A program made the translations under genes and the position numbers. A stretch of DNA of 64,000 bases from an uncultured delta proteobacterium (GTDB lineage Bacteria > Desulfobacterota > Binatia > UBA9968). This document shows positions 3,999-27,886 of the stretch, piece by piece. Under the pieces are notes generated by a model. It saw nothing but the letters and a program-made list of their open reading frames with translations. It ran no database searches and was not told the DNA's origin. The stretch is taken from contig CAWFJP010000031.1 of the NCBI GenBank assembly GCA_963816145.1, forward strand, positions 480,001 through 544,000, written 5' to 3'. Every line of letters starts with the position of its first letter. Position 1 is the first letter of the stretch.

Positions 3999-5162
3999 CT
4001 ATTTGATGACGTTGGCCGCGCGCAGTTCGCTCAACTGCGCGGCGCTCAAGCCCAACACGTTTCCTAAGACAGAGTCGGTGTGCTGGCCCAGCAGCGGGGC
4101 GTCGTCGCGGATGCTGGTCGGCGTCTTTGACATGTGAATCCATGGCGCCAAGAGTTTCGTCGGGCCGGCGACCGGATGATTTCTCTCGATGAAAGCTTTC
4201 CGTTCCTTGATATGTTCGTCCTCGATGACTTCACCCATGGACAGCACCGGCGCGCCAAAGTAGTCGATATGGCGCAAGCCTTGCCAAAGTTCTTGGCGGG
4301 TTTTGGTCTTGGCCCAGTCTTTGACCAGCGTGTGTAAGGCCGCACGATTTTGCTTCCGCGCCGCGCCGTCCGAGAAACGCGGATCTTGGAGCAGATCGTC
4401 GCGCTCCATTAATTTCGCGAGCTTCGCCCAACCGCCGTCGCTCACATCGGGTATGCGCAGCGTGAAATAGCCGTCCGCCGCCGGCACCGGATAATTGCCG
4501 ACTTCGATGCCGATGAAGTGTTCGTGAAACTCGCTGATCATGAAACCCAACAGCGCTTCCTGCATCGATACGGCGATGCGCTGGCCTTCGCCGGTCTTTT
4601 CTCGCGCGTGCAGTGCCGCCAGGATGCCGCACACCATGCTGATACCGGCGGCTTCGTCGCCGATGCCGATCGCTTTGGTGCCCGGCGCTTTGCTGTACTG
4701 CCAGCCGGTGTGGGTCCAGCCGGTCATGCTGTTGTTGGTGTGCGCCGTGCTGCCGTAATCTTTGTACGGCCCCGACTCGCCGAAGCCGCGCGTGCAGGAG
4801 TAGATGATCCGCGGGTTGATCTTCTTCAGATCCTCATAGCCCAGGCCAAATTTTTCCATCTGCCCAGTGTGGTAGTTTTCCACGACGACATCGGCTTTGG
4901 CGATCAACTGGCGCGCCAAATCGACGCCCAGGGCGGTTTTCAAATTCAATACCACGCTTTTCTTGTTGACGTTGACCCACAAGAATTCGTAAGCATCGAC
5001 CTTGGCGTTGGGCGGCATCCACGAGCGGCGAAAGCCGTCGCCGGCGGGTGGCTCGATTTTAATAATTTCTGCGCCAAGGTGGCCGAGCAGCATGGTGCAG
5101 AACGGGCCGTTCAAAGCATGGGTAAAGTCGATCACGCGAATATCGTCCAGTGCGCCGGGCAT
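3999..5162 (-). CDS. Family III CoA-transferase (CaiB/BaiF)
   Basis: IRVIDFT..GPFCTMLL..LGAEIIKIEPP.GD; DVVVENY; catalytic Asp in GIGDEAAG; APLLGQHT. Confidence 0.93.
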   Translation of the reverse strand: MPGALDDIRVIDFTHALNGPFCTMLLGHLGAEIIKIEPPAGDGFRRSWMPPNAKVDAYEFLWVNVNKKSVVLNLKTALGVDLARQLIAKADVVVENYHTGQMEKFGLGYEDLKKINPRIIYSCTRGFGESGPYKDYGSTAHTNNSMTGWTHTGWQYSKAPGTKAIGIGDEAAGISMVCGILAALHAREKTGEGQRIAVSMQEALLGFMISEFHEHFIGIEVGNYPVPAADGYFTLRIPDVSDGGWAKLAKLMERDDLLQDPRFSDGAARKQNRAALHTLVKDWAKTKTRQELWQGLRHIDYFGAPVLSMGEVIEDEHIKERKAFIERNHPVAGPTKLLAPWIHMSKTPTSIRDDAPLLGQHTDSVLGNVLGLSAAQLSELRAANVIK

Positions 5163-5238
5163 GTTTTCCTACCTCCGTGGAGATTTTCGCTGTTCCATAT
5201 CAATATCGGACGAAAGAAGCGAGCCTAAGTTGCTCTGT

Positions 5239-5415
5239 TTACGCAGGCTTAAACTTCGCCAGCGTCACTTCTGGTGTTACATCATCAAAATGCACCTTGA
5301 CCGCCATACCGACTTTCACATCTTCCCGTGGGCAACCGATGATGTTGCTGACGAGCTGCACGCGTCCGCCGATGCCGGCGATGGCGGTTTTGTCCTTGAT
5401 AGCTTGCTCAGGCAT
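5239..5415 (-). pseudogene. Chimeric remnant: thiolase-like N-terminus fused to DUF35/OB-fold C-terminus
   Basis: MPEQAIKDKTAIAGIG (typical thiolase start) joined directly to VQLVSNIIGCPREDVKVGMAVKVHFDDVTPEVTLAKFKPA (typical DUF35 end); only 58 aa. Confidence 0.7.
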
Positions 5416-5641
5416 GAAATTTCCCCCTAAAAAAAAAGGCGCGGGTGCTCCGCTTAGCTGATTTAGCCGGACCATACCACGAAACAGCGGGCCGGCAAGA
5501 GAATTTCAGCGTGGCAATCCTCGCTCTACCGCGACGACAAATCCTTGACAGGGAGCCGACGGCGGGGCTAGCTTGCCCTATGTCGTTGATGCTTGCCGAC
5601 TCGAAAAGACGATCGCCGTACCCGCGGTCCGAGGAGGAACG

Positions 5642-23521: not shown

Positions 23522-24655
23522 TTAAACCTCCAGTCCGTAAAAGCGCTTCGGATTGTCCCATAAAATTTTCCGGCGCGCTTCTTGTGAGAGATGATCATTC
23601 TTCGTGAGATCGCCGACGGTGCGATCGGGAAACTTGCCGATGCAGTCGCTATGCGGATAGTCGGTGGCGACCAGCAGATAATCTTCGCCGACATGCTCGA
23701 CGAAGACCGACGCCAACTCTTCGCCGGCTTCGGCGCTGGCCCAGCATTGGCGCTTGAAATAAAAGCTCGGTTTTTCTTTGGTCGTCTTGGCCTGGCCGTG
23801 GCCTTCGTGTTCCCAGTGCTCGTCCATGCGCTCCAACCAGAACGGCACCCAGCCGCAGCCCGACTCCAAATGGGCGACTTTGAGTTTGGGAAACCGTTCC
23901 AACACGCCGTCGGCGCAGAGGTTCAAACAGGCGAGCATTTGCTCCAACGGATGGCAGGCGATATGGCGGCCGAATTCACTGTAGCGGTCCGAGCCGGCTT
24001 GCGCCAGCACGGTGCGCGCGCCTTCGTGCACGCAGACGGTCATGCCGAGGTCGGCGGCGGTTTCGTAGATCGGATAATAATCCGGACTCGACATGGTCCG
24101 GCCGCAGATCTTGTTGGGTCGCCAGAAGATTCCGACCAGCCCGAGTTTCTTGGCGTGTTTCAATTCTTCCACCGCGCGAGCGGGATCCTGCAACGGCAGC
24201 AAGGCGACGCCGTAGAGCCGCTTGTTGCTGACGCTGCAATAGTCCGACATCCAGGTGTTGTAGGCGCGGCAGATTGCGGCGGAAAGCTCGGGATCCAAAT
24301 TATCGCGCCACATGATGTAGAGGCCGACGGTGGGGAAGAGCACGCCGAGATCGACGCCTTCTTTATCCATATCGCGAACGTTGGACGCGCTATCGAACTT
24401 CGAAGCCAGGGCGTCGGCGAAGGTCTCGCGCCATTTTTTCGAGGCGGCGAAAGTAAAGCCGAAGTCTTCTTGTTTCGTCGCGTCGCGCAACCGGTCGGCG
24501 TCGGAAATCAGCTCGCCATCGACGCGCCGGTAGGATTGATTGGGCCCTTTGATTTCGACCCGGCTGCGGAATTTCTCGGGTAAATATTTGGCAAATAGAT
24601 CCGACGGCTCGAGCACATGGCGGTCGGCGTCGATGACCTTGAATCCATCTCTCAT
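23522..24655 (-). CDS. Amidohydrolase-2 family protein
   Basis: VIDADRHVLEP, CVHEG, LESG.GW.PFW, ATDYPH. Confidence 0.9.
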   Translation of the reverse strand: MRDGFKVIDADRHVLEPSDLFAKYLPEKFRSRVEIKGPNQSYRRVDGELISDADRLRDATKQEDFGFTFAASKKWRETFADALASKFDSASNVRDMDKEGVDLGVLFPTVGLYIMWRDNLDPELSAAICRAYNTWMSDYCSVSNKRLYGVALLPLQDPARAVEELKHAKKLGLVGIFWRPNKICGRTMSSPDYYPIYETAADLGMTVCVHEGARTVLAQAGSDRYSEFGRHIACHPLEQMLACLNLCADGVLERFPKLKVAHLESGCGWVPFWLERMDEHWEHEGHGQAKTTKEKPSFYFKRQCWASAEAGEELASVFVEHVGEDYLLVATDYPHSDCIGKFPDRTVGDLTKNDHLSQEARRKILWDNPKRFYGLEV

Positions 24656-24888
24656 GATTTGGCTCCTTTCGAATAACCTACGCGAGTCGCGGGACTGATG
24701 AAAAACTTGAACGTCCATAAATAGGCTGAGTTGGCAGAGGGAGTCAACAGCAGGAAGGCGTGAGGCTTGAGGCGCGAGTAAGAGAACGGGGAGTCAGGAG
24801 TCAGGAGTTCGGACAGCTGCTTTCTTCGCCATCCAGTTTTACTGCATAGACGGAGCACGCGCAGTCGTAGTAGATTGGCGCGCAAGTT

Positions 24889-26577
24889 ATGAATGTTCGG
24901 CGCGCGCGGCTGGTTACCGGGCTCATCTTACTTACCTATCTGTCGACCCACTTGCTCAACCATGCGCTCGGGTTGATTTCGCTGGCGGCGATGGAGTGGG
25001 GGCGCTGGTGGTTTTTGCTTTTGTGGCGCAATCCGGTCGGTACCGTGGTGCTGTACAGCGCGTTGCTGACCCATCTGTGTCTGGCGATCTGGGCGCTGTA
25101 CCAGCGGCGCCACTGGCGCATGCCGGTGAGCGAGATGCTGCAATTGGTTTTCGGTCTGACGATTCCGCTGTTGTTGACGATCCACATCGTCGGCACCCGG
25201 CTGACGCATGAGTACTTTGGTGTCGACGACTCCTACACGCTGATGGTTTTGACGCTTTGGCATGCCTCGCCGATGGACGGCTTGCGCCAGGCGACCCTCA
25301 TTCTCATCGCCTGGACCCATGGCTGCATCGGCTGTCATTTTTGGCTGCGACTGAAGAAATGGTATCCGCGGGTCGCACCGTACTTTCTTGCCTTGGCGCT
25401 GCTCCTACCGGTGTGCGGTCTATTGGGTTTCGTTAATGGCGGTCGCGAAGTTTCTAACCTGATCGCGCGCGAACCGAATTGGCTGGAAAGTTTTCTCACC
25501 GCTGCCAGAGTCCCACCGCGCAGTCAAAGGGAGGTTTTGTACCAGATTTATGACGGAGTCTTGATCACCTTCGGCGCGGCGATTGTCTTGGCGCTGCTGG
25601 CCCGGGTTGCGCGCAGCTTGGTCGAGCGGCGCAGCCGCATCCGCATAACCTATCCGAGCGGCCGCGTGGTCCAGGTGCCGCGCAATTTTACCATCCTCGA
25701 AGCGAGCCGATTGGCGGACATCCCCCATGCTTCGGTATGCGGCGGGCGCGGCCGTTGCTCGACCTGCCGCGTGCGCGTGTCCCATGGGGCAGCCAGTTTA
25801 CCGCCGCCAAATGCCGGCGAGTTAAGAGTATTGCAGCGTGTCGGCGCCGCACCCAACGTCAGACTCGCCTGCCAGCTCCGGCCGACGGCTAATCTTGCCG
25901 TGACGCCGCTGCTCCCGGCCAACGCGCAGGCATGCGATGGCTACGGCCAACCAGCCTACCTTACCGGCCAGGAGCGGATGATCGTCGTGATGTTCGCCGA
26001 TATCCGCTCGTTCACCGGCATCGCCGAAACCAAGCTGCCGTACGATTTGGTATTTTTTCTCAATAGCTATTTCGAATCGGTCGGTGCCGCGATCGTTTCG
26101 AGCGGCGGCATGATCGATAAATTCGTCGGTGATGGTGTGATGGCGCTATTCGGCGTCGACAACGGCCCCGAAGAAGGTTGTCGCCAAGCGCTTGCCGCCG
26201 CCCAGGCGATGATCGAGCGCGTCGACGGCTTGAGCCGCGCCCTGTCCGAGGAGTTGAGCGCGCCGCTGCGAATCGGTATCGGCGTGCACTGCGGACCGGC
26301 GGTGGTCGGACGAATGGGCTACGGCGAGTCGATTCATGTCACCGCCATCGGCGACACGGTCAACGTCGCCAGCCGGTTACAAGACGCAACCAAGGAATTT
26401 CACTGTCAGTTGGTGTTCTCGGCAGAAGTCGCTAAGCAGTCTGGACTCAACACTGCCGGTCTGCCGCGTCACGATTTGACCGTGCGCAATCGGCGCGAGA
26501 CACTGACAATCTTCGCCATCGAAGATGTCGCTGAGTTAGCGACCCAGGCCAAATCGACGATCATTGGCAATGCCTGA
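24889..26577 (+). CDS. Membrane adenylate/guanylate cyclase with His-containing TM region and 2Fe-2S ferredoxin domain (CyaC-like)
   Basis: TM helices with His (THLLNH, THL, IHI, WTHG..GCH); CGGRGRCSTC...RLACQ; FADIRSFT, IDKFVGDG, GDTVNVASRL. Confidence 0.9.
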   Translation: MNVRRARLVTGLILLTYLSTHLLNHALGLISLAAMEWGRWWFLLLWRNPVGTVVLYSALLTHLCLAIWALYQRRHWRMPVSEMLQLVFGLTIPLLLTIHIVGTRLTHEYFGVDDSYTLMVLTLWHASPMDGLRQATLILIAWTHGCIGCHFWLRLKKWYPRVAPYFLALALLLPVCGLLGFVNGGREVSNLIAREPNWLESFLTAARVPPRSQREVLYQIYDGVLITFGAAIVLALLARVARSLVERRSRIRITYPSGRVVQVPRNFTILEASRLADIPHASVCGGRGRCSTCRVRVSHGAASLPPPNAGELRVLQRVGAAPNVRLACQLRPTANLAVTPLLPANAQACDGYGQPAYLTGQERMIVVMFADIRSFTGIAETKLPYDLVFFLNSYFESVGAAIVSSGGMIDKFVGDGVMALFGVDNGPEEGCRQALAAAQAMIERVDGLSRALSEELSAPLRIGIGVHCGPAVVGRMGYGESIHVTAIGDTVNVASRLQDATKEFHCQLVFSAEVAKQSGLNTAGLPRHDLTVRNRRETLTIFAIEDVAELATQAKSTIIGNA

Positions 26578-26622
26578 GTCGTGGTTCGCTCGGCGATGCA
26601 CAGATTTACGCATCCCCGTACA

Positions 26623-27201
26623 TCAGAGTTTGGTTCCCGGCGGCGCGAGACCCGCAGTTGTTTCGCCAAGCACCGCGCCATGCTCGATGCCGAGGGTTTT
26701 GATCCAGCGCTGTTGGCCCAGGGTGAGGCCAATGAAAAAACCGAGCTCGACCAATTCGGGAATCGAAAAGTACTGATGCAATTTCGCCCACAGCGCGTCG
26801 TCGGCGATGTCTGAGTTCCAGGCGATCGCGCTGGTGTAAACCAGGGCGGCTTTTTCCCGCTCGGTGAATTTGTCCGAATCGGCGAAGTTGAGCAGCTCGT
26901 CATATTTCGCTTCGGTGAGTCCTTGCCGTCCAGCCTGGACGGAACGTTGCACACCTCAATATTCGCAATCGATCGACCTGGAAACGTAGACCCGGCACAG
27001 CTCTTTCAACGCGTGGTCGACCACGCCGTTACGGAACGTCAGCTCCCACGCCTGCGAGAACGCGCGGATGACCTCGGGAACATGGGCTCGCACGGCCTGA
27101 CTTTCAGGGCGCGGCGTGCCTTCGAGGCGAGCGCGTTCCAGATAGCCTTTGATCTCGGGGTCGGTGACTGTATCGGGGTCGATGTAGGGAATGTGCGGCA
27201 T
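26623..27201 (-). CDS. AhpD/carboxymuconolactone decarboxylase-like selenoprotein (CxxU), UGA at 26956-26958 read as Sec
   Basis: Track ORFs 26956-27207 and 26623-26952 are in frame: ...LKELCRVYVSRSIDCEY-TGA-GVQRS...FTEREKAAL..; hairpin follows the UGA. Confidence 0.88.
26926..26942 (-). promoter_or_regulatory. Candidate bacterial SECIS element
   Basis: mRNA CCGUCCA-GGC-UGGACGG, 13 nt after the in-frame UGA. Confidence 0.75.
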
Positions 27202-27258
27202 AGACACCTCCGAAGATTGCTGATTTTCCCGGTGGTCAGTGGTTTTTGAAAGTGGCCT

Positions 27259-27747
27259 CTACGATGATTGGCTTGCCCAGTCAGTTAGGATCTGATTGAG
27301 CTGCGCGCGGATCTCTACTTCGCTTTTGGTCAAGTCCATCGGCTTGCCGAACGGTTGCGGCACGTCGACGCCGCTGGGCCAGTAGACTTCCACCGAATTG
27401 CCGTCGGGATCGTTGGCGTAGATGCTGACCGTGTTGCCATGGCTGACGACGCGGTTGATCGGCACATTCTTGTCGACGAACAGCTGGTAGAAATCCTTGA
27501 CGTCTTTGAGCGTCGGACAGCGGAAGGAAATCTGCTGTAAAACGTTGACTTGGCCATCGTCGTTGCGTCCCGGCGCGAGATAAAGCTCGTGGTGCTCGAC
27601 GCTGCGATCTTGGCTGGTCATGAACACGGCGCCGCGCGGACTGCGGTCGCTGACGGTCAAGCCAAGAACGTCGCGGTAGAACGCCACCGAGCGTTCGATG
27701 TCGCGCACGTAGAACCCCATATGTCCGAGTGATGTGACTTTAGGCAT
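27259..27747 (-). CDS. VOC/glyoxalase family protein
   Basis: LGHMGFYVRDIERSVAFYRDVLG; HHEL; SIYANDPDGNSVEVY. Confidence 0.9.
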   Translation of the reverse strand: MPKVTSLGHMGFYVRDIERSVAFYRDVLGLTVSDRSPRGAVFMTSQDRSVEHHELYLAPGRNDDGQVNVLQQISFRCPTLKDVKDFYQLFVDKNVPINRVVSHGNTVSIYANDPDGNSVEVYWPSGVDVPQPFGKPMDLTKSEVEIRAQLNQILTDWASQSS

Positions 27748-27886
27748 AAAGTTCTCCTTCGCTGGCGCGGATTGTTAAATGGCGGTGCCGATGATGTCAA
27801 TGGTTGGCTTTAAAGACGTGATCGTGTTCGTGCGCGGTTTCATCGGCAACGCTGCGGTGATCGCGGCTACTCAAAGCAGTAAGAAG

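What the first reader, a model, noticed from the sequence alone, without database searches (positions are those of the whole stretch)
26623..27201. Hidden selenoprotein: AhpD-like protein with C-E-Y-U
Seen: two ORF-track fragments are one reading frame interrupted by TGA exactly at the second Cys of the AhpD CxxC motif (TGC GAA TAT TGA GGT). A hairpin CCGUCCA-GGC-UGGACGG follows, extendable through a bulged C and a GGUG/CACC lower stem, with the loop 21 nt after the UGA. Known: bacterial Sec insertion uses a hairpin just 3' of UGA with a G at the start of the apical loop, and AhpD-like selenoproteins are known. The usual His after the motif appears replaced (U-G-V-Q-R), and the gene follows a VOC gene. 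Inference: a distinct subfamily acting in a two-gene detoxification or catabolic unit.
Basis: partly seen in the sequence, partly recalled or inferred. Interest (0 to 1): 0.8.

Follow-up and report, generated by a model that had tools for sequence, protein, structure and literature searches.

The report
Hidden selenocysteine AhpD-like redox gene
A gene that looks cut in two by a stop codon really encodes one small redox enzyme with selenocysteine in its active site; this kind of selenoprotein is already known in bacteria, but this branch is widespread in soil and groundwater bacteria and is usually mis-annotated.

Summary
On the minus strand, 27201..26623 is one 192-codon frame with a single in-frame TGA (26958..26956) at the second Cys of a C-E-Y-C motif, in a CMD/AhpD-fold protein.

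It is a genuine selenoprotein:
- The genome has selA, selB, selD and tRNA-Sec.
- The TGA is kept in 25 related genomes and in 80 of 80 named loci. Cys homologs align exactly at that column.
- Both halves are under purifying selection, and TGA is a normal stop elsewhere in the window.
- A 7-bp hairpin with a GGC loop sits 13 nt after the UGA. It pairs in 97.9% of cells, and 4 of 7 pairs show compensatory changes. Synonymous variation in its codons is almost abolished. Cys forms lack it.

AhpD-like/CMD-like CxxU selenoproteins have been in print since 2005, so this is a new member of a known kind.

It is distinct in one respect. The family's "invariant" relay His is Arg (Q-R-S signature), and it fails every specific NCBIfam model.

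The GGUG/CACC lower stem is not conserved. The VOC gene is a neighbour only within the genus, so the "two-gene unit" is unsupported. The substrate is unknown.

The parts
26623..27201 (-). Complete CDS of the AhpD/CMD-fold selenoprotein: 192 codons plus the terminal TGA stop at 26623-26625
   Evidence: Translation with TGA=U. Pfam CMD PF02627 scores 33.7 bits against a cut-off of 23. dN/dS is 0.093 for codons 1-81 and 0.126 for codons 83-185.
26956..26958 (-). UGA codon 82, read as selenocysteine (U82). It is the second position of the C79-E-Y-U82 redox motif.
   Evidence: TGA at this column in 25 related genomes and in 80 of 80 named loci. TGC/TGT at the same column in 5 Cys homologs. No alternative base in two independent DNA runs.
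26943..26955 (-). 13-nt spacer between UGA and the hairpin (codons G83-V84-Q85-R86 and the first base of S87)
   Evidence: The alignment A1 of 83 sequences is gap-free, so spacing is fixed. Synonymous sites here vary freely.
26926..26942 (-). bSECIS-like core hairpin: 5' arm 26942..26936 (CCGUCCA), loop 26935..26933 (GGC), 3' arm 26932..26926 (UGGACGG)
   Evidence: 97.9% of 581 cells paired. 4 of 7 pairs have changes on both sides. Slid controls pair in 16-42% of cells. Normalised synonymous entropy is 0.10 against 0.70 elsewhere. dG is -9.2 to -12.3 kcal/mol in all Sec variants against -0.3 to -5.6 in Cys forms. The first loop G is invariant.
26965..26967 (-). Codon C79, the first (resolving) Cys of the CxxU motif
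   Evidence: Invariant in 82 Sec forms and at least 90% conserved in A2. Aligns with Cys48 of PA0269.
26944..26946 (-). Codon R86, which replaces the relay His (His55 of PA0269, His137 of M. tuberculosis AhpD)
   Evidence: Alignment to 2ijc/2o4d. Q85, R86 and S87 are each at least 90% conserved in the subfamily. Relay residues are taken from PMC3141380.
27001..27003 (-). Codon E67, equivalent to relay Glu36 (PA0269) and Glu118 (Mtb AhpD), 12 residues before C79
   Evidence: Ungapped alignment of query 60-159 to 2ijc 29-129. E67 is at least 90% conserved.
27207..27211 (-). Shine-Dalgarno-like GGAGG, 5 nt before the ATG
   Evidence: Read directly from the sequence.
27259..27747 (-). Upstream VOC/glyoxalase-fold gene. 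Probably co-transcribed in this genome, but not a conserved partner.
   Evidence: Pfam PF00903. No minus-strand terminator-like site in the 57-nt gap, and a promoter-like site at 27800..27771 (consensus match only). Synteny is restricted to the genus.

Best explanation
The gene encodes one 192-residue selenoprotein of the carboxymuconolactone-decarboxylase/AhpD fold.

Recoding. When the ribosome reaches UGA-82, the 7-bp hairpin with its G-first three-base loop sits 13 nt downstream. It is bound by SelB carrying Sec-tRNA(Sec), and selenocysteine is inserted instead of terminating. The conserved element and the machinery are shown; the binding itself is inferred from the established bacterial Sec mechanism.

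Enzyme. The product has a C79-x-x-U82 redox centre at the start of a helix of the AhpD helix-turn-helix. Glu67 and Tyr81 of the AhpD proton relay are kept, and Arg86 stands in place of the relay His.

Most likely chemistry (inferred). It is a thiol/selenol oxidoreductase. The U82 selenolate attacks an oxidised substrate, such as a hydroperoxide or a sulfenic acid/disulfide on a partner protein. C79 then resolves the adduct into a selenenyl-sulfide. A cellular thiol reductant regenerates the enzyme. The physiological substrate is not known.

The gene with its embedded SECIS is widespread and patchily distributed, with repeated Sec/Cys exchange.

The confidence given is for 'genuine SECIS-dependent selenoprotein with a CxxU redox centre'. 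The specific substrate class is much less certain.
For: Machinery in the same genome:
- selA 616 bits, selB 417 bits, and selD 380 bits with its own in-frame TGA. All three are contiguous on contig C30.
- tRNA-Sec at 74 bits.

TGA/Cys alternation:
- 30 of 61 related genomes have a homolog at E<=1e-10. 26 of them (with G000) carry the in-frame TGA. Cys forms occur in 5 genomes.
- Motifs are C-[EQ]-Y-U-G-V-Q-R-S against C-E-Y-C-G-N-Q-R-S.
- 80 of 80 named loci carry TGA.

Not an error or a recoded genome:
- Two DNA runs of different studies show no other letter at the TGA or hairpin.
- TGA ends 15 of 37 long ORFs in the window, including this gene.

Both halves are coding: dN/dS is 0.093 and 0.126 over 220 of 300 sampled pairs.

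RNA element:
- 97.9% of cells paired, and 4 of 7 pairs have double changes in 15 cells (0 of 500 shuffles reach this). Slid controls reach at most 42% paired.
- Two 46-48% identical Sec homologs have different stems (CUGCACA/UGUGCAG and CUGCACG/CGUGCAG). Both start at the same offset as in the window, with G as the first loop base (GGC in one, GUC in the other).
- Normalised synonymous-codon entropy of stem codons 87-92 is 0.10. It is 0.70 for 108 other conserved degenerate codons (p 2.7e-5).
- 5 of 5 Cys forms lack the hairpin.
[quoted passage not shown] The first loop G is invariant.

Protein:
- Pfam CMD passes its cut-off.
- The model has pLDDT 83.5 and pTM 0.81.
- Best folds are AhpD-core proteins and Bmp8, at TM 0.74-0.75.
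- Relay mapping is E67/C79/Y81/U82/R86 against Glu36/Cys48/Tyr50/Cys51/His55.

AhpD-like and CMD-like CxxU selenoproteins are published (PMC1088965, PMC2398784, PMC13188914; passages).
Against: - There is no direct evidence of selenium incorporation or of translation past the UGA.
- The RNA contigs laid do not bridge the TGA.
- The stability of the local fold is not exceptional against shuffles (z -0.56).
- The hairpin codons also encode conserved residues (S-V-Q-A-G-R), so part of the nucleotide invariance could be protein-driven. However, these positions are not among the columns at least 90% conserved in the Cys-rich alignment.
- The relay His, called invariant and essential in AhpD-like proteins (PMC3141380), is missing. 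The chemistry may therefore differ from AhpD.
- No ahpC/peroxiredoxin neighbour was seen among the neighbours examined.
- Model confidence is lowest just after the motif (pLDDT 59-73 for residues 71-100).
- 3 of 23 same-genus copies are split over two frames: G005, G009 and G025. These may be assembly errors or decaying copies.
- 3 of 25 related TGA carriers showed no selA. Their completeness is 65, 88 and 93%.
Confidence: 0.88

Rival explanations
1. Real selenoprotein, but not an AhpD-type peroxidase adaptor. The His-less Q-R-S clade would do direct small-molecule reductive chemistry, for example a Bmp8-like or deiodinase-like reductive dehalogenation, or reduction of an electrophile made by neighbouring catabolic enzymes.
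For: - The relay His, 'invariant' in AhpD-like proteins, is Arg.
- The profile search hits the Bmp8 debrominase as strongly as PA0269 (E 6.1e-11 against 5.7e-11).
- Bmp8 is the top fold match (TM 0.74). Its C-M-Y-C aligns with C-E-Y-U, and it also lacks His at +4.
- Recurrent neighbours are metabolic enzymes: Amidohydro_2 directly upstream in 11 of 80 loci, plus MmgE/PrpD, a 2-hydroxyacid dehydrogenase and an alpha/beta-hydrolase.
- No ahpC was seen nearby.
Against: - Identity to Bmp8 is only 17-19%.
- No neighbour is conserved across the clade.
- Nothing points to a halogenated or other specific substrate.
- The Bmp8 mechanism is recalled, not read. One search found no paper in the library.
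Confidence: 0.2
2. One reading: the selenoprotein and the upstream VOC gene form a dedicated two-gene detoxification or catabolic unit.
For: - In this window the VOC gene ends 57 nt upstream on the same strand, with no terminator-like site between. A promoter-like site lies upstream of VOC.
- The VOC gene is directly upstream in 11 of 80 named loci.
Against: - All 17 loci with a VOC homolog belong to the near-identical (at least 86%) group of the same genus. In 6 of them an Amidohydro_2-like gene lies between.
- 0 of 62 loci at 84% identity or less have an adjacent VOC gene.
- Synteny within a genus is expected from shared descent. MurJ and the cyclase are conserved neighbours there too.
Confidence: 0.08
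3. A pseudogene, or two separate small genes: the TGA is a true stop, and the downstream ORF is dead or independently translated.
For: - Table-11 ORF calling gives two ORFs of 83 and 109 aa.
- 3 of 23 same-genus copies also carry frame breaks.
Against: - The TGA is kept at one column in 25 related genomes and in 80 of 80 named loci. No other stop appears in the 82 intact copies analysed.
- dN/dS is 0.13 downstream of the TGA.
- Cys homologs are continuous across the site.
- There is a conserved, covarying hairpin at the site.
Confidence: 0.02
4. TGA is read as Trp or Gly by a changed genetic code or by general read-through, not as Sec.
For: 10 of the 114 classified database relatives (of the 120 listed) are deposited with W at this column. 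This shows that some gene callers chose such a code.
Against: - TGA is the most common stop of long ORFs in the window (15 of 37) and ends this very gene.
- The column aligns with a catalytic Cys, not with Trp or Gly.
- A complete Sec system is present.
Confidence: 0.01

Closest known systems
AhpD-like (COG2128/TIGR01926) and CMD-like (PF02627) CxxU selenoproteins (Sargasso Sea 2005, GOS 2008; listed in the 2026 review PMC13188914)
   Same: - CMD/AhpD fold.
- Sec at the second position of CxxU, with Cys homologs.
- Hairpin with a G in a small loop right after the UGA.
- Passes the PF02627 cut-off.
   Different: - Scores 24.9 bits against the 81.8 cut-off of TIGR01926.
- No hit at E<=0.01 to the other named models.
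- Relay His replaced by Arg, with a Q-R-S signature.
- I could not compare it with the published representative accessions. There is no access to those sequences and supplements are closed. The clade may already be counted there.
NF053654 'YciW-related (seleno)protein' (NCBIfam)
   Same: Best NCBIfam match. It has the same overall length and aligns over residues 7-158.
   Different: 49.2 bits against a cut-off of 310, so it is not a member.
PA0269 of P. aeruginosa and AhpD of M. tuberculosis (2ijc/2o4d/7xw1; PMC3141380)
   Same: - Helix-turn-helix active site with Glu-x11-Cys-x-Tyr-Cys.
- Closest solved sequence relative (E 1e-5 for the single sequence, 6e-11 for the profile).
   Different: - Sec for the second Cys.
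- Arg for the 'invariant' His.
- About 190-aa architecture rather than 145 aa.
- No ahpC neighbour was seen.
Peroxidase-related AhpD-core proteins of about 185 aa (2prr, 2oyo, 2pfx, D. radiodurans 6k40)
   Same: Whole-chain fold, with TM 0.70-0.75 over 172-178 columns.
   Different: 17-23% identity. These are Cys proteins.
Bmp8 tetrabromopyrrole debrominase (6ohi/6ohj)
   Same: - Top fold hit (TM 0.74).
- Profile E 6e-11.
- Its CxYC aligns with CEYU, and it has no His at +4.
   Different: - 17-19% identity.
- Cys enzyme.
- Its substrate context (a bromopyrrole pathway) is not seen here.
- Its mechanism is recalled, not read.
Bacterial SECIS elements (the fdhF type of E. coli is recalled; the general description is from PMC1088965)
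   Same: Stem-loop immediately 3' of the UGA inside the coding region, with a small apical loop holding a conserved G.
   Different: - Its own sequence.
- A 3-nt GGC loop, or a 5-nt AGGCC loop where the closing A-U is lost (12 of 83 sequences).
- No Rfam family matched.

Membership tests
Bacterial selenoprotein gene (SelB/SECIS-dependent UGA recoding) | In-frame UGA that aligns with Cys in homologs | tested here: met
   U82 aligns with Cys in 5 genomic homologs and in 104 of the 114 database proteins classified (of 120 listed).
Bacterial selenoprotein gene (SelB/SECIS-dependent UGA recoding) | Stem-loop just downstream of the UGA with a small apical loop containing G | tested here: met
   7-bp stem and GGC loop, 13 nt after the UGA. 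97.9% of cells paired, and 4 of 7 pairs covary. The first loop G is invariant. The criterion is taken from PMC1088965.
Bacterial selenoprotein gene (SelB/SECIS-dependent UGA recoding) | selA, selB, selD and tRNA-Sec in the same genome | tested here: met
   All four score above their curated cut-offs.
Bacterial selenoprotein gene (SelB/SECIS-dependent UGA recoding) | Selenium actually incorporated at the UGA | not testable with these tools
   This needs 75Se labelling or mass spectrometry. The RNA contigs laid do not even bridge the site.
Pfam CMD (PF02627) | Score above the gathering threshold | tested here: met
   33.7 bits against 23, over residues 42-120.
AhpD-like family as defined in PMC3141380 (proton relay) | Glu 12 residues before the first Cys | tested here: met
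   E67 aligns with Glu36 and is at least 90% conserved.
AhpD-like family as defined in PMC3141380 (proton relay) | Cys-x-x-Cys, both Cys invariant | tested here: inconclusive
   The first Cys is kept (C79). The second is Sec in this clade and Cys in its relatives. This is a conservative catalytic substitution known in this superfamily.
AhpD-like family as defined in PMC3141380 (proton relay) | His four residues after the second Cys ('invariant') | tested here: not met
   R86 aligns with His55. Arg is at least 90% conserved in the subfamily, Cys forms included.
TIGR01926 peroxidase-related enzyme (the model the 2026 review gives for 'AhpD-like protein' selenoproteins) | Score above the curated cut-off | tested here: not met
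   24.9 bits against 81.8.
NF053654 YciW-related (seleno)protein | Score above the curated cut-off | tested here: not met
   49.2 bits against 310.
NF041047 distant AhpD homolog / NF041238 AhpD-related protein (selenoprotein models named in PMC13188914) | Any significant match | tested here: not met
   Neither is among the NCBIfam hits at E<=0.01. HMMER filters may hide very weak matches.

The most novel reading that the evidence does not exclude
The His-less Q-R-S clade is a functionally separate selenoenzyme rather than an AhpC adaptor. A selenolate assisted by Arg86 would act directly on a small molecule: reductive dehalogenation of the Bmp8/deiodinase type, or hydroperoxide or electrophile reduction.

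The gene would also travel horizontally as a self-contained cassette. Its nearly invariant SECIS lies inside the coding sequence and works with the SelB of many unrelated soil and groundwater bacteria.

This would explain two observations:
- Carriers whose MurJ is only 36-42% identical share a 73-79% identical gene with an identical hairpin.
- Sister genera of the window's own family hold only Cys forms.
Probability: 0.2. Interest if true: 0.6.

Novelty: new member of a known kind. Interest (0 to 1): 0.35.

Why it matters
- It corrects the annotation of a gene that standard pipelines split in two, or translate with Trp at the catalytic residue.
- It adds a well-defined, widespread clade to the AhpD/CMD group of selenoproteins. 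All 80 of the best-matching loci in a collection of 185,579 species genomes carry the TGA.
- It provides an unusually clean natural example of a bSECIS, with compensatory changes and near-abolished synonymous variation in the stem codons. This could serve to calibrate selenoprotein and SECIS predictors.
- The missing relay His makes the clade a candidate for chemistry different from canonical AhpD.
- It does not open a new category of biology.

Tried and rejected
Thermodynamic test. The 68-nt fold is no more stable than shuffles (z -0.56). I dropped this as evidence and used comparative tests instead.

Rfam. Nothing relevant at E<=10 in 26500-27300 (one RT-11 match at 12.9 bits, chance).

Counted and rejected. 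Only the U16-A35 pair across the bulge is kept (80 of 83), and A35 is a second codon position.

VOC unit. Rejected on synteny.

selA co-occurrence among relatives. Not discriminating, because 56 of 61 genomes have selA whether or not they carry the gene. G027 holds only Cys forms and showed no selA at 92% completeness. That is one case and was not followed up.

Phylum-wide search. 0 of 400 other genomes matched at E<=1e-20. This shows only that the gene was not found in those searched.

Transcription. The RNA-library contigs cover only 26501-26739 and 27573-27733, do not bridge the TGA, and may be DNA carry-over. They are no evidence either way.

Submitter taxonomy. Labels of MAGs are unreliable. 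Members of one genus carry labels such as Binatia, Thermodesulfobacteriota, Verrucomicrobiia, Chloroflexota and 'delta proteobacterium'. I therefore used MurJ identity as a label-free distance.

Tree. FastTree only. The distant Sec pair L050/L134 sits on a long branch and its place is unsure. I draw no direction (gain or loss) from it.

Literature.
- 9 papers for 'AhpD-like' plus selenoprotein.
- 0 papers for selenoprotein plus Binatia.
- 70 papers with at least 2 of CMD/selenocysteine/CxxU, 15 listed.
- 3 papers.
- 0 papers for Bmp8 plus debrominase.
- I read passages only (find mode) of PMC2398784, PMC1088965, PMC13326102, PMC13188914, PMC1794560 and PMC3141380.
- I do not claim that this clade is unpublished. 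The family tables of BSepDB and of the 2026 review may include it, and supplements were closed.
- Recalled, not read: the numeric bSECISearch criteria, the E. coli fdhF SECIS, which Cys of M. tuberculosis AhpD is the nucleophile, and the Bmp8 mechanism paper.

Not used: complex prediction, the search of protein representatives, the protein-atlas search, build_rna_model.
Full report
WHAT IS THERE

The finding lies on the minus strand. From ATG 27201..27199, preceded by GGAGG at 27211..27207, one reading frame runs to a terminal TGA at 26625..26623. It is interrupted once, by TGA at 26958..26956.

Standard ORF calling gives two pieces of 83 and 109 aa. Read through, the product has 192 residues with the motif C79-E-Y-U82-G-V-Q-R86-S.

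Thirteen bases after the UGA lies the hairpin CCGUCCA-GGC-UGGACGG (26942..26926).

The protein matches Pfam CMD (PF02627) at 33.7 bits against a cut-off of 23. A VOC/glyoxalase gene (27747..27259) ends 57 nt upstream. A convergent membrane/2Fe-2S/adenylate-cyclase gene lies downstream.

IS THE TGA A SEC CODON?

1. The window's own genome (7.8 Mb, 31 contigs) has the machinery. selA, selB and selD lie in one block on contig C30. selD carries its own in-frame TGA. A tRNA-Sec lies about 10 kb further on. All score above their curated cut-offs.

2. A read-through search of 61 related genomes found a homolog at E<=1e-10 in 30.
- 26 of these (the window's genome, 23 others of the genus, and two of another family) have a TGA in frame.
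- Five genomes hold stop-free homologs at 54-59% identity.
- Extraction shows the TGA always at the same column. The stop-free forms have TGC or TGT exactly there: C-E-Y-C-G-N-Q-R-S.
- G005 is an unpublished genome and is one of the 23.

3. A scan of one genome for each of 185,579 species returned 214 relatives. All 80 of the best loci carry TGA at the column: 79 by pattern and L120 by inspection. Twenty of these loci are the same genes as those.

4. Two DNA runs from different studies cover the gene, with no alternative base at the TGA or in the hairpin. An assembly error is therefore excluded.

5. TGA is an ordinary stop here. It ends 15 of 37 long ORFs in the window, and this gene itself. 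A changed genetic code is excluded.

6. Both halves are under purifying selection. Median dN/dS is 0.093 for codons 1-81 and 0.126 for codons 83-185, over the 220 of 300 sampled pairs that passed the dS filters.

THE RNA ELEMENT

Stability alone is unremarkable: z = -0.56, and 50 of 200 shuffles fold as well. The comparative evidence is strong.

Pairing and covariation. The alignment of 83 distinct 54-nt segments is gap-free (A1).
- The 7-bp stem pairs in 97.9% of 581 cells.
- Four of seven pairs change on both sides, in 15 cells: C-G to U-A, U-A to C-G, C-G to A-U, and A-U to G-C.
- None of 500 shuffles reaches the observed pairing or covariation score.
- Partners slid by 1-3 columns pair in only 16-42% of cells.

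Distant Sec forms. The two most distant Sec forms (46-48% protein identity) have different stems. L050 has CUGCACA-GGC-UGUGCAG and L134 has CUGCACG-GUC-CGUGCAG. Both start at the same offset.

Synonymous sites. Within the gene, normalised synonymous-codon entropy of the six stem codons (87-92) is 0.10. It is 0.70 for 108 other conserved degenerate codons (Mann-Whitney p 2.7e-5; 82 Sec forms). Codons flanking the stem vary freely.

Peptide. S-V-Q-A-G-R, encoded by the stem, is 93-100% conserved in Sec forms. It is not among the conserved columns of the Cys-rich alignment. This suggests that the RNA constrains the peptide.

Cys forms. Five of five Cys forms have no hairpin at this place (-0.3 to -5.6 kcal/mol). 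All seven Sec variants give -9.2 to -12.3 kcal/mol.

Loop. The first loop base, G, is invariant. [quoted passage not shown] In 12 of 83 sequences the closing A-U pair is lost, giving a 5-nt loop AGGCC.

The lower GGUG/CACC stem is not conserved: 53.6% of cells pair, and pair 6-43 forms in 2 of 83 sequences.

Other Sec sites in the genome. By eye, the in-frame TGAs of this genome's selD and of a second CMD paralog are also followed by small G-containing loops. These start 18-21 nt after the UGA (not tested statistically).

No Rfam family matched.

THE PROTEIN

Structure. The AlphaFold model (57-row alignment) has pLDDT 83.5 and pTM 0.81. Confidence is lower for residues 71-100.

Fold relatives. 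The best solved folds are the ~185-aa AhpD-core 'peroxidase-related' proteins (2prr, 2oyo, D. radiodurans 6k40) and the Bmp8 debrominase, at TM 0.72-0.75.

Sequence relatives. The nearest solved relatives are PA0269 of P. aeruginosa and Bmp8 (profile E about 6e-11 each).

Active site. PMC3141380 (passages) defines the AhpD-like active site as a proton relay.
- It is Glu36-Cys48-Tyr50-Cys51-His55 in PA0269, and Glu118-Cys130-His132-Cys133-His137 in M. tuberculosis AhpD.
- It calls the two Cys and the His invariant.
- The ungapped alignment maps these residues to E67, C79, Y81, U82 and R86.
- So four of five are kept, Sec takes the second Cys, and the His is Arg.
- Q85-R86-S87 are each at least 90% conserved in the subfamily, Cys forms included.
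- Other signature blocks are G-T-P-R-P-E-S (28-34) and T-L-G-Q-Q (160-164).

Mechanism (inferred). It is a selenol/thiol oxidoreductase. The U82 selenolate is the attacking group and C79 resolves the adduct into a selenenyl-sulfide. Arg86 may stabilise the anion, as no general base is needed for a selenol. The substrate is unknown.

CONTEXT

The VOC gene is not a conserved partner.
- A VOC homolog lies near the gene in 17 of 80 named loci. All 17 are among the 18 loci at least 86% identical to the window protein.
- It is directly upstream in 11 of them. In 6 an Amidohydro_2-like gene lies between.
- None of the 62 loci at 84% identity or less has an adjacent VOC gene.

Other neighbours vary.
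- An Amidohydro_2-like gene is directly upstream in 11 of 80 loci, four of them among the more distant loci (79-80% identical).
- Other recurrent neighbours are an NMT1-like binding protein, an alpha/beta-hydrolase, a 2-hydroxyacid dehydrogenase, MmgE/PrpD and an Ada-like regulator.
- No neighbour is general.

In this window the two genes may well be co-transcribed. There is no terminator-like site in the gap, and a promoter-like site lies at 27800..27771 (consensus matches only).

DISTRIBUTION AND EVOLUTION

- The gene was not found in 400 other genomes sampled across the window's phylum at E<=1e-20. It was not found in 19 of 19 genomes of a sister family.
- Sister genera of the window's own family hold only Cys forms at 54-57% identity.
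- Yet Sec forms 72-84% identical occur in MAGs labelled Rokuibacteriota, Burkholderiales, Actinomycetota, Chloroflexota, Armatimonadota and others.
- Labels are unreliable, because one genus carries several phylum labels. As a label-free check I took five such carriers.
  - Four have selA.
  - In four of them MurJ is only 36-42% identical to the window's, and it was not found in the fifth.
  - Their AhpD-like gene is 73-79% identical to the window's.
- On a FastTree of 203 proteins, the Sec/Cys state needs at least 8 changes, 4 of them forced by well-supported branches.
- Patchy distribution, high identity and repeated Sec/Cys exchange fit horizontal spread. The direction of the changes was not established.

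DATABASE STATE

- Of the 120 best full-length database relatives, 114 were classified. 104 have Cys at the column and 10 have W.
- The W entries are named 'alkylhydroperoxidase family enzyme'. Their contexts otherwise match the Sec forms (for example CEYWGVQRSVQA), so I infer that the W is a TGA read as Trp by the gene caller. Their DNA was not examined.
- True Sec forms are otherwise invisible in the database as full-length proteins.

COMPARISON WITH WHAT IS KNOWN

AhpD-like (COG2128) and CMD-domain selenoproteins with CxxU were reported from the Sargasso Sea in 2005. They appear as AhpD-like 1 and 2 in the GOS data in 2008. The 2026 review lists several such families with their models, and BSepDB holds an 'AhpD-like protein family'. 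The kind is therefore known.

This protein passes only the generic PF02627 threshold. It fails TIGR01926 (24.9 against 81.8 bits) and NF053654 (49.2 against 310), and shows no match to the other named models. It also lacks the relay His.

I could not check whether the published representatives belong to this clade.

VERDICT

This is a real, conserved selenoprotein gene with a textbook-quality SECIS. It is a new, or at least unannotated, member of a known kind, with a non-canonical active-site neighbour (Arg for His).

The two-gene VOC unit and the extended lower stem are not supported. Interest is moderate to low for a specialist. The main value is correct annotation, a clean SECIS example, and a candidate for non-AhpD chemistry.

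Noticed in passing
G000 contig C13, about 117077-117700 (+), locus L053: A second, distantly related (23% identity) CMD/AhpD-fold gene in the same genome has an in-frame TGA in H-I-N-G-C-P-Y-U-I-D-S. It is followed by a GCAUC-CGGGGC-GAUGC hairpin about 12 nt after the UGA. It is probably another CxxU selenoprotein.
   Followed up: partly
G000 contig C30, 562492-566803 and 576761-576851 (loci L001, L002, L010, L013): selA, selB and selD lie back to back. selD itself has an in-frame TGA (…K-A-A-G-U-A-A-K-L-G…), so it is a Sec-containing SelD. tRNA-Sec lies about 10 kb downstream.
   Followed up: partly
L097:2102-2662 and L097:about 4883-5450: One MAG (labelled 'uncultured Syntrophobacteraceae') carries two paralogous copies of the Sec gene 2.8 kb apart. 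Both have TGA and the same hairpin. An MmgE/PrpD gene lies between them.
   Followed up: partly
Database proteins P0002, P0003, P0005, P0007-P0009, P0020, P0024, P0027, P0029: Ten deposited full-length relatives have Trp at the Sec column (for example CEYWGVQRS). The TGA was apparently translated as W by the gene caller. These are probably mis-annotated selenoproteins.
   Followed up: partly
G027 (same genus; loci L043 and G027:C41:10286-10837): This genome (92% complete) has two Cys-form copies, no TGA form, and no selA match. It may be a lineage that lost the Sec trait.
   Followed up: no
G005:C152, G009:C54, G025:C56 (loci L049, L048, L042): Three of 23 same-genus copies of the gene are split over two frames downstream of the TGA. 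These are frameshifts or assembly errors. G005 is an unpublished genome.
   Followed up: no
window 24889-26577 (+): The convergent downstream gene combines an N-terminal membrane region, a 2Fe-2S ferredoxin domain (PF00111) and an adenylate/guanylate cyclase domain (PF00211). This is an unusual architecture that suggests a redox-sensing cyclase. It is a conserved neighbour within the genus.
   Followed up: no
window 23522-24718 (-), and loci L057-L060, L065, L071, L085, L087, L088, L090, L110: Amidohydro_2 (PF04909) genes recur around the selenoprotein gene. A paralog 24-27% identical to the window's lies directly upstream in 11 of 80 loci.
   Followed up: partly
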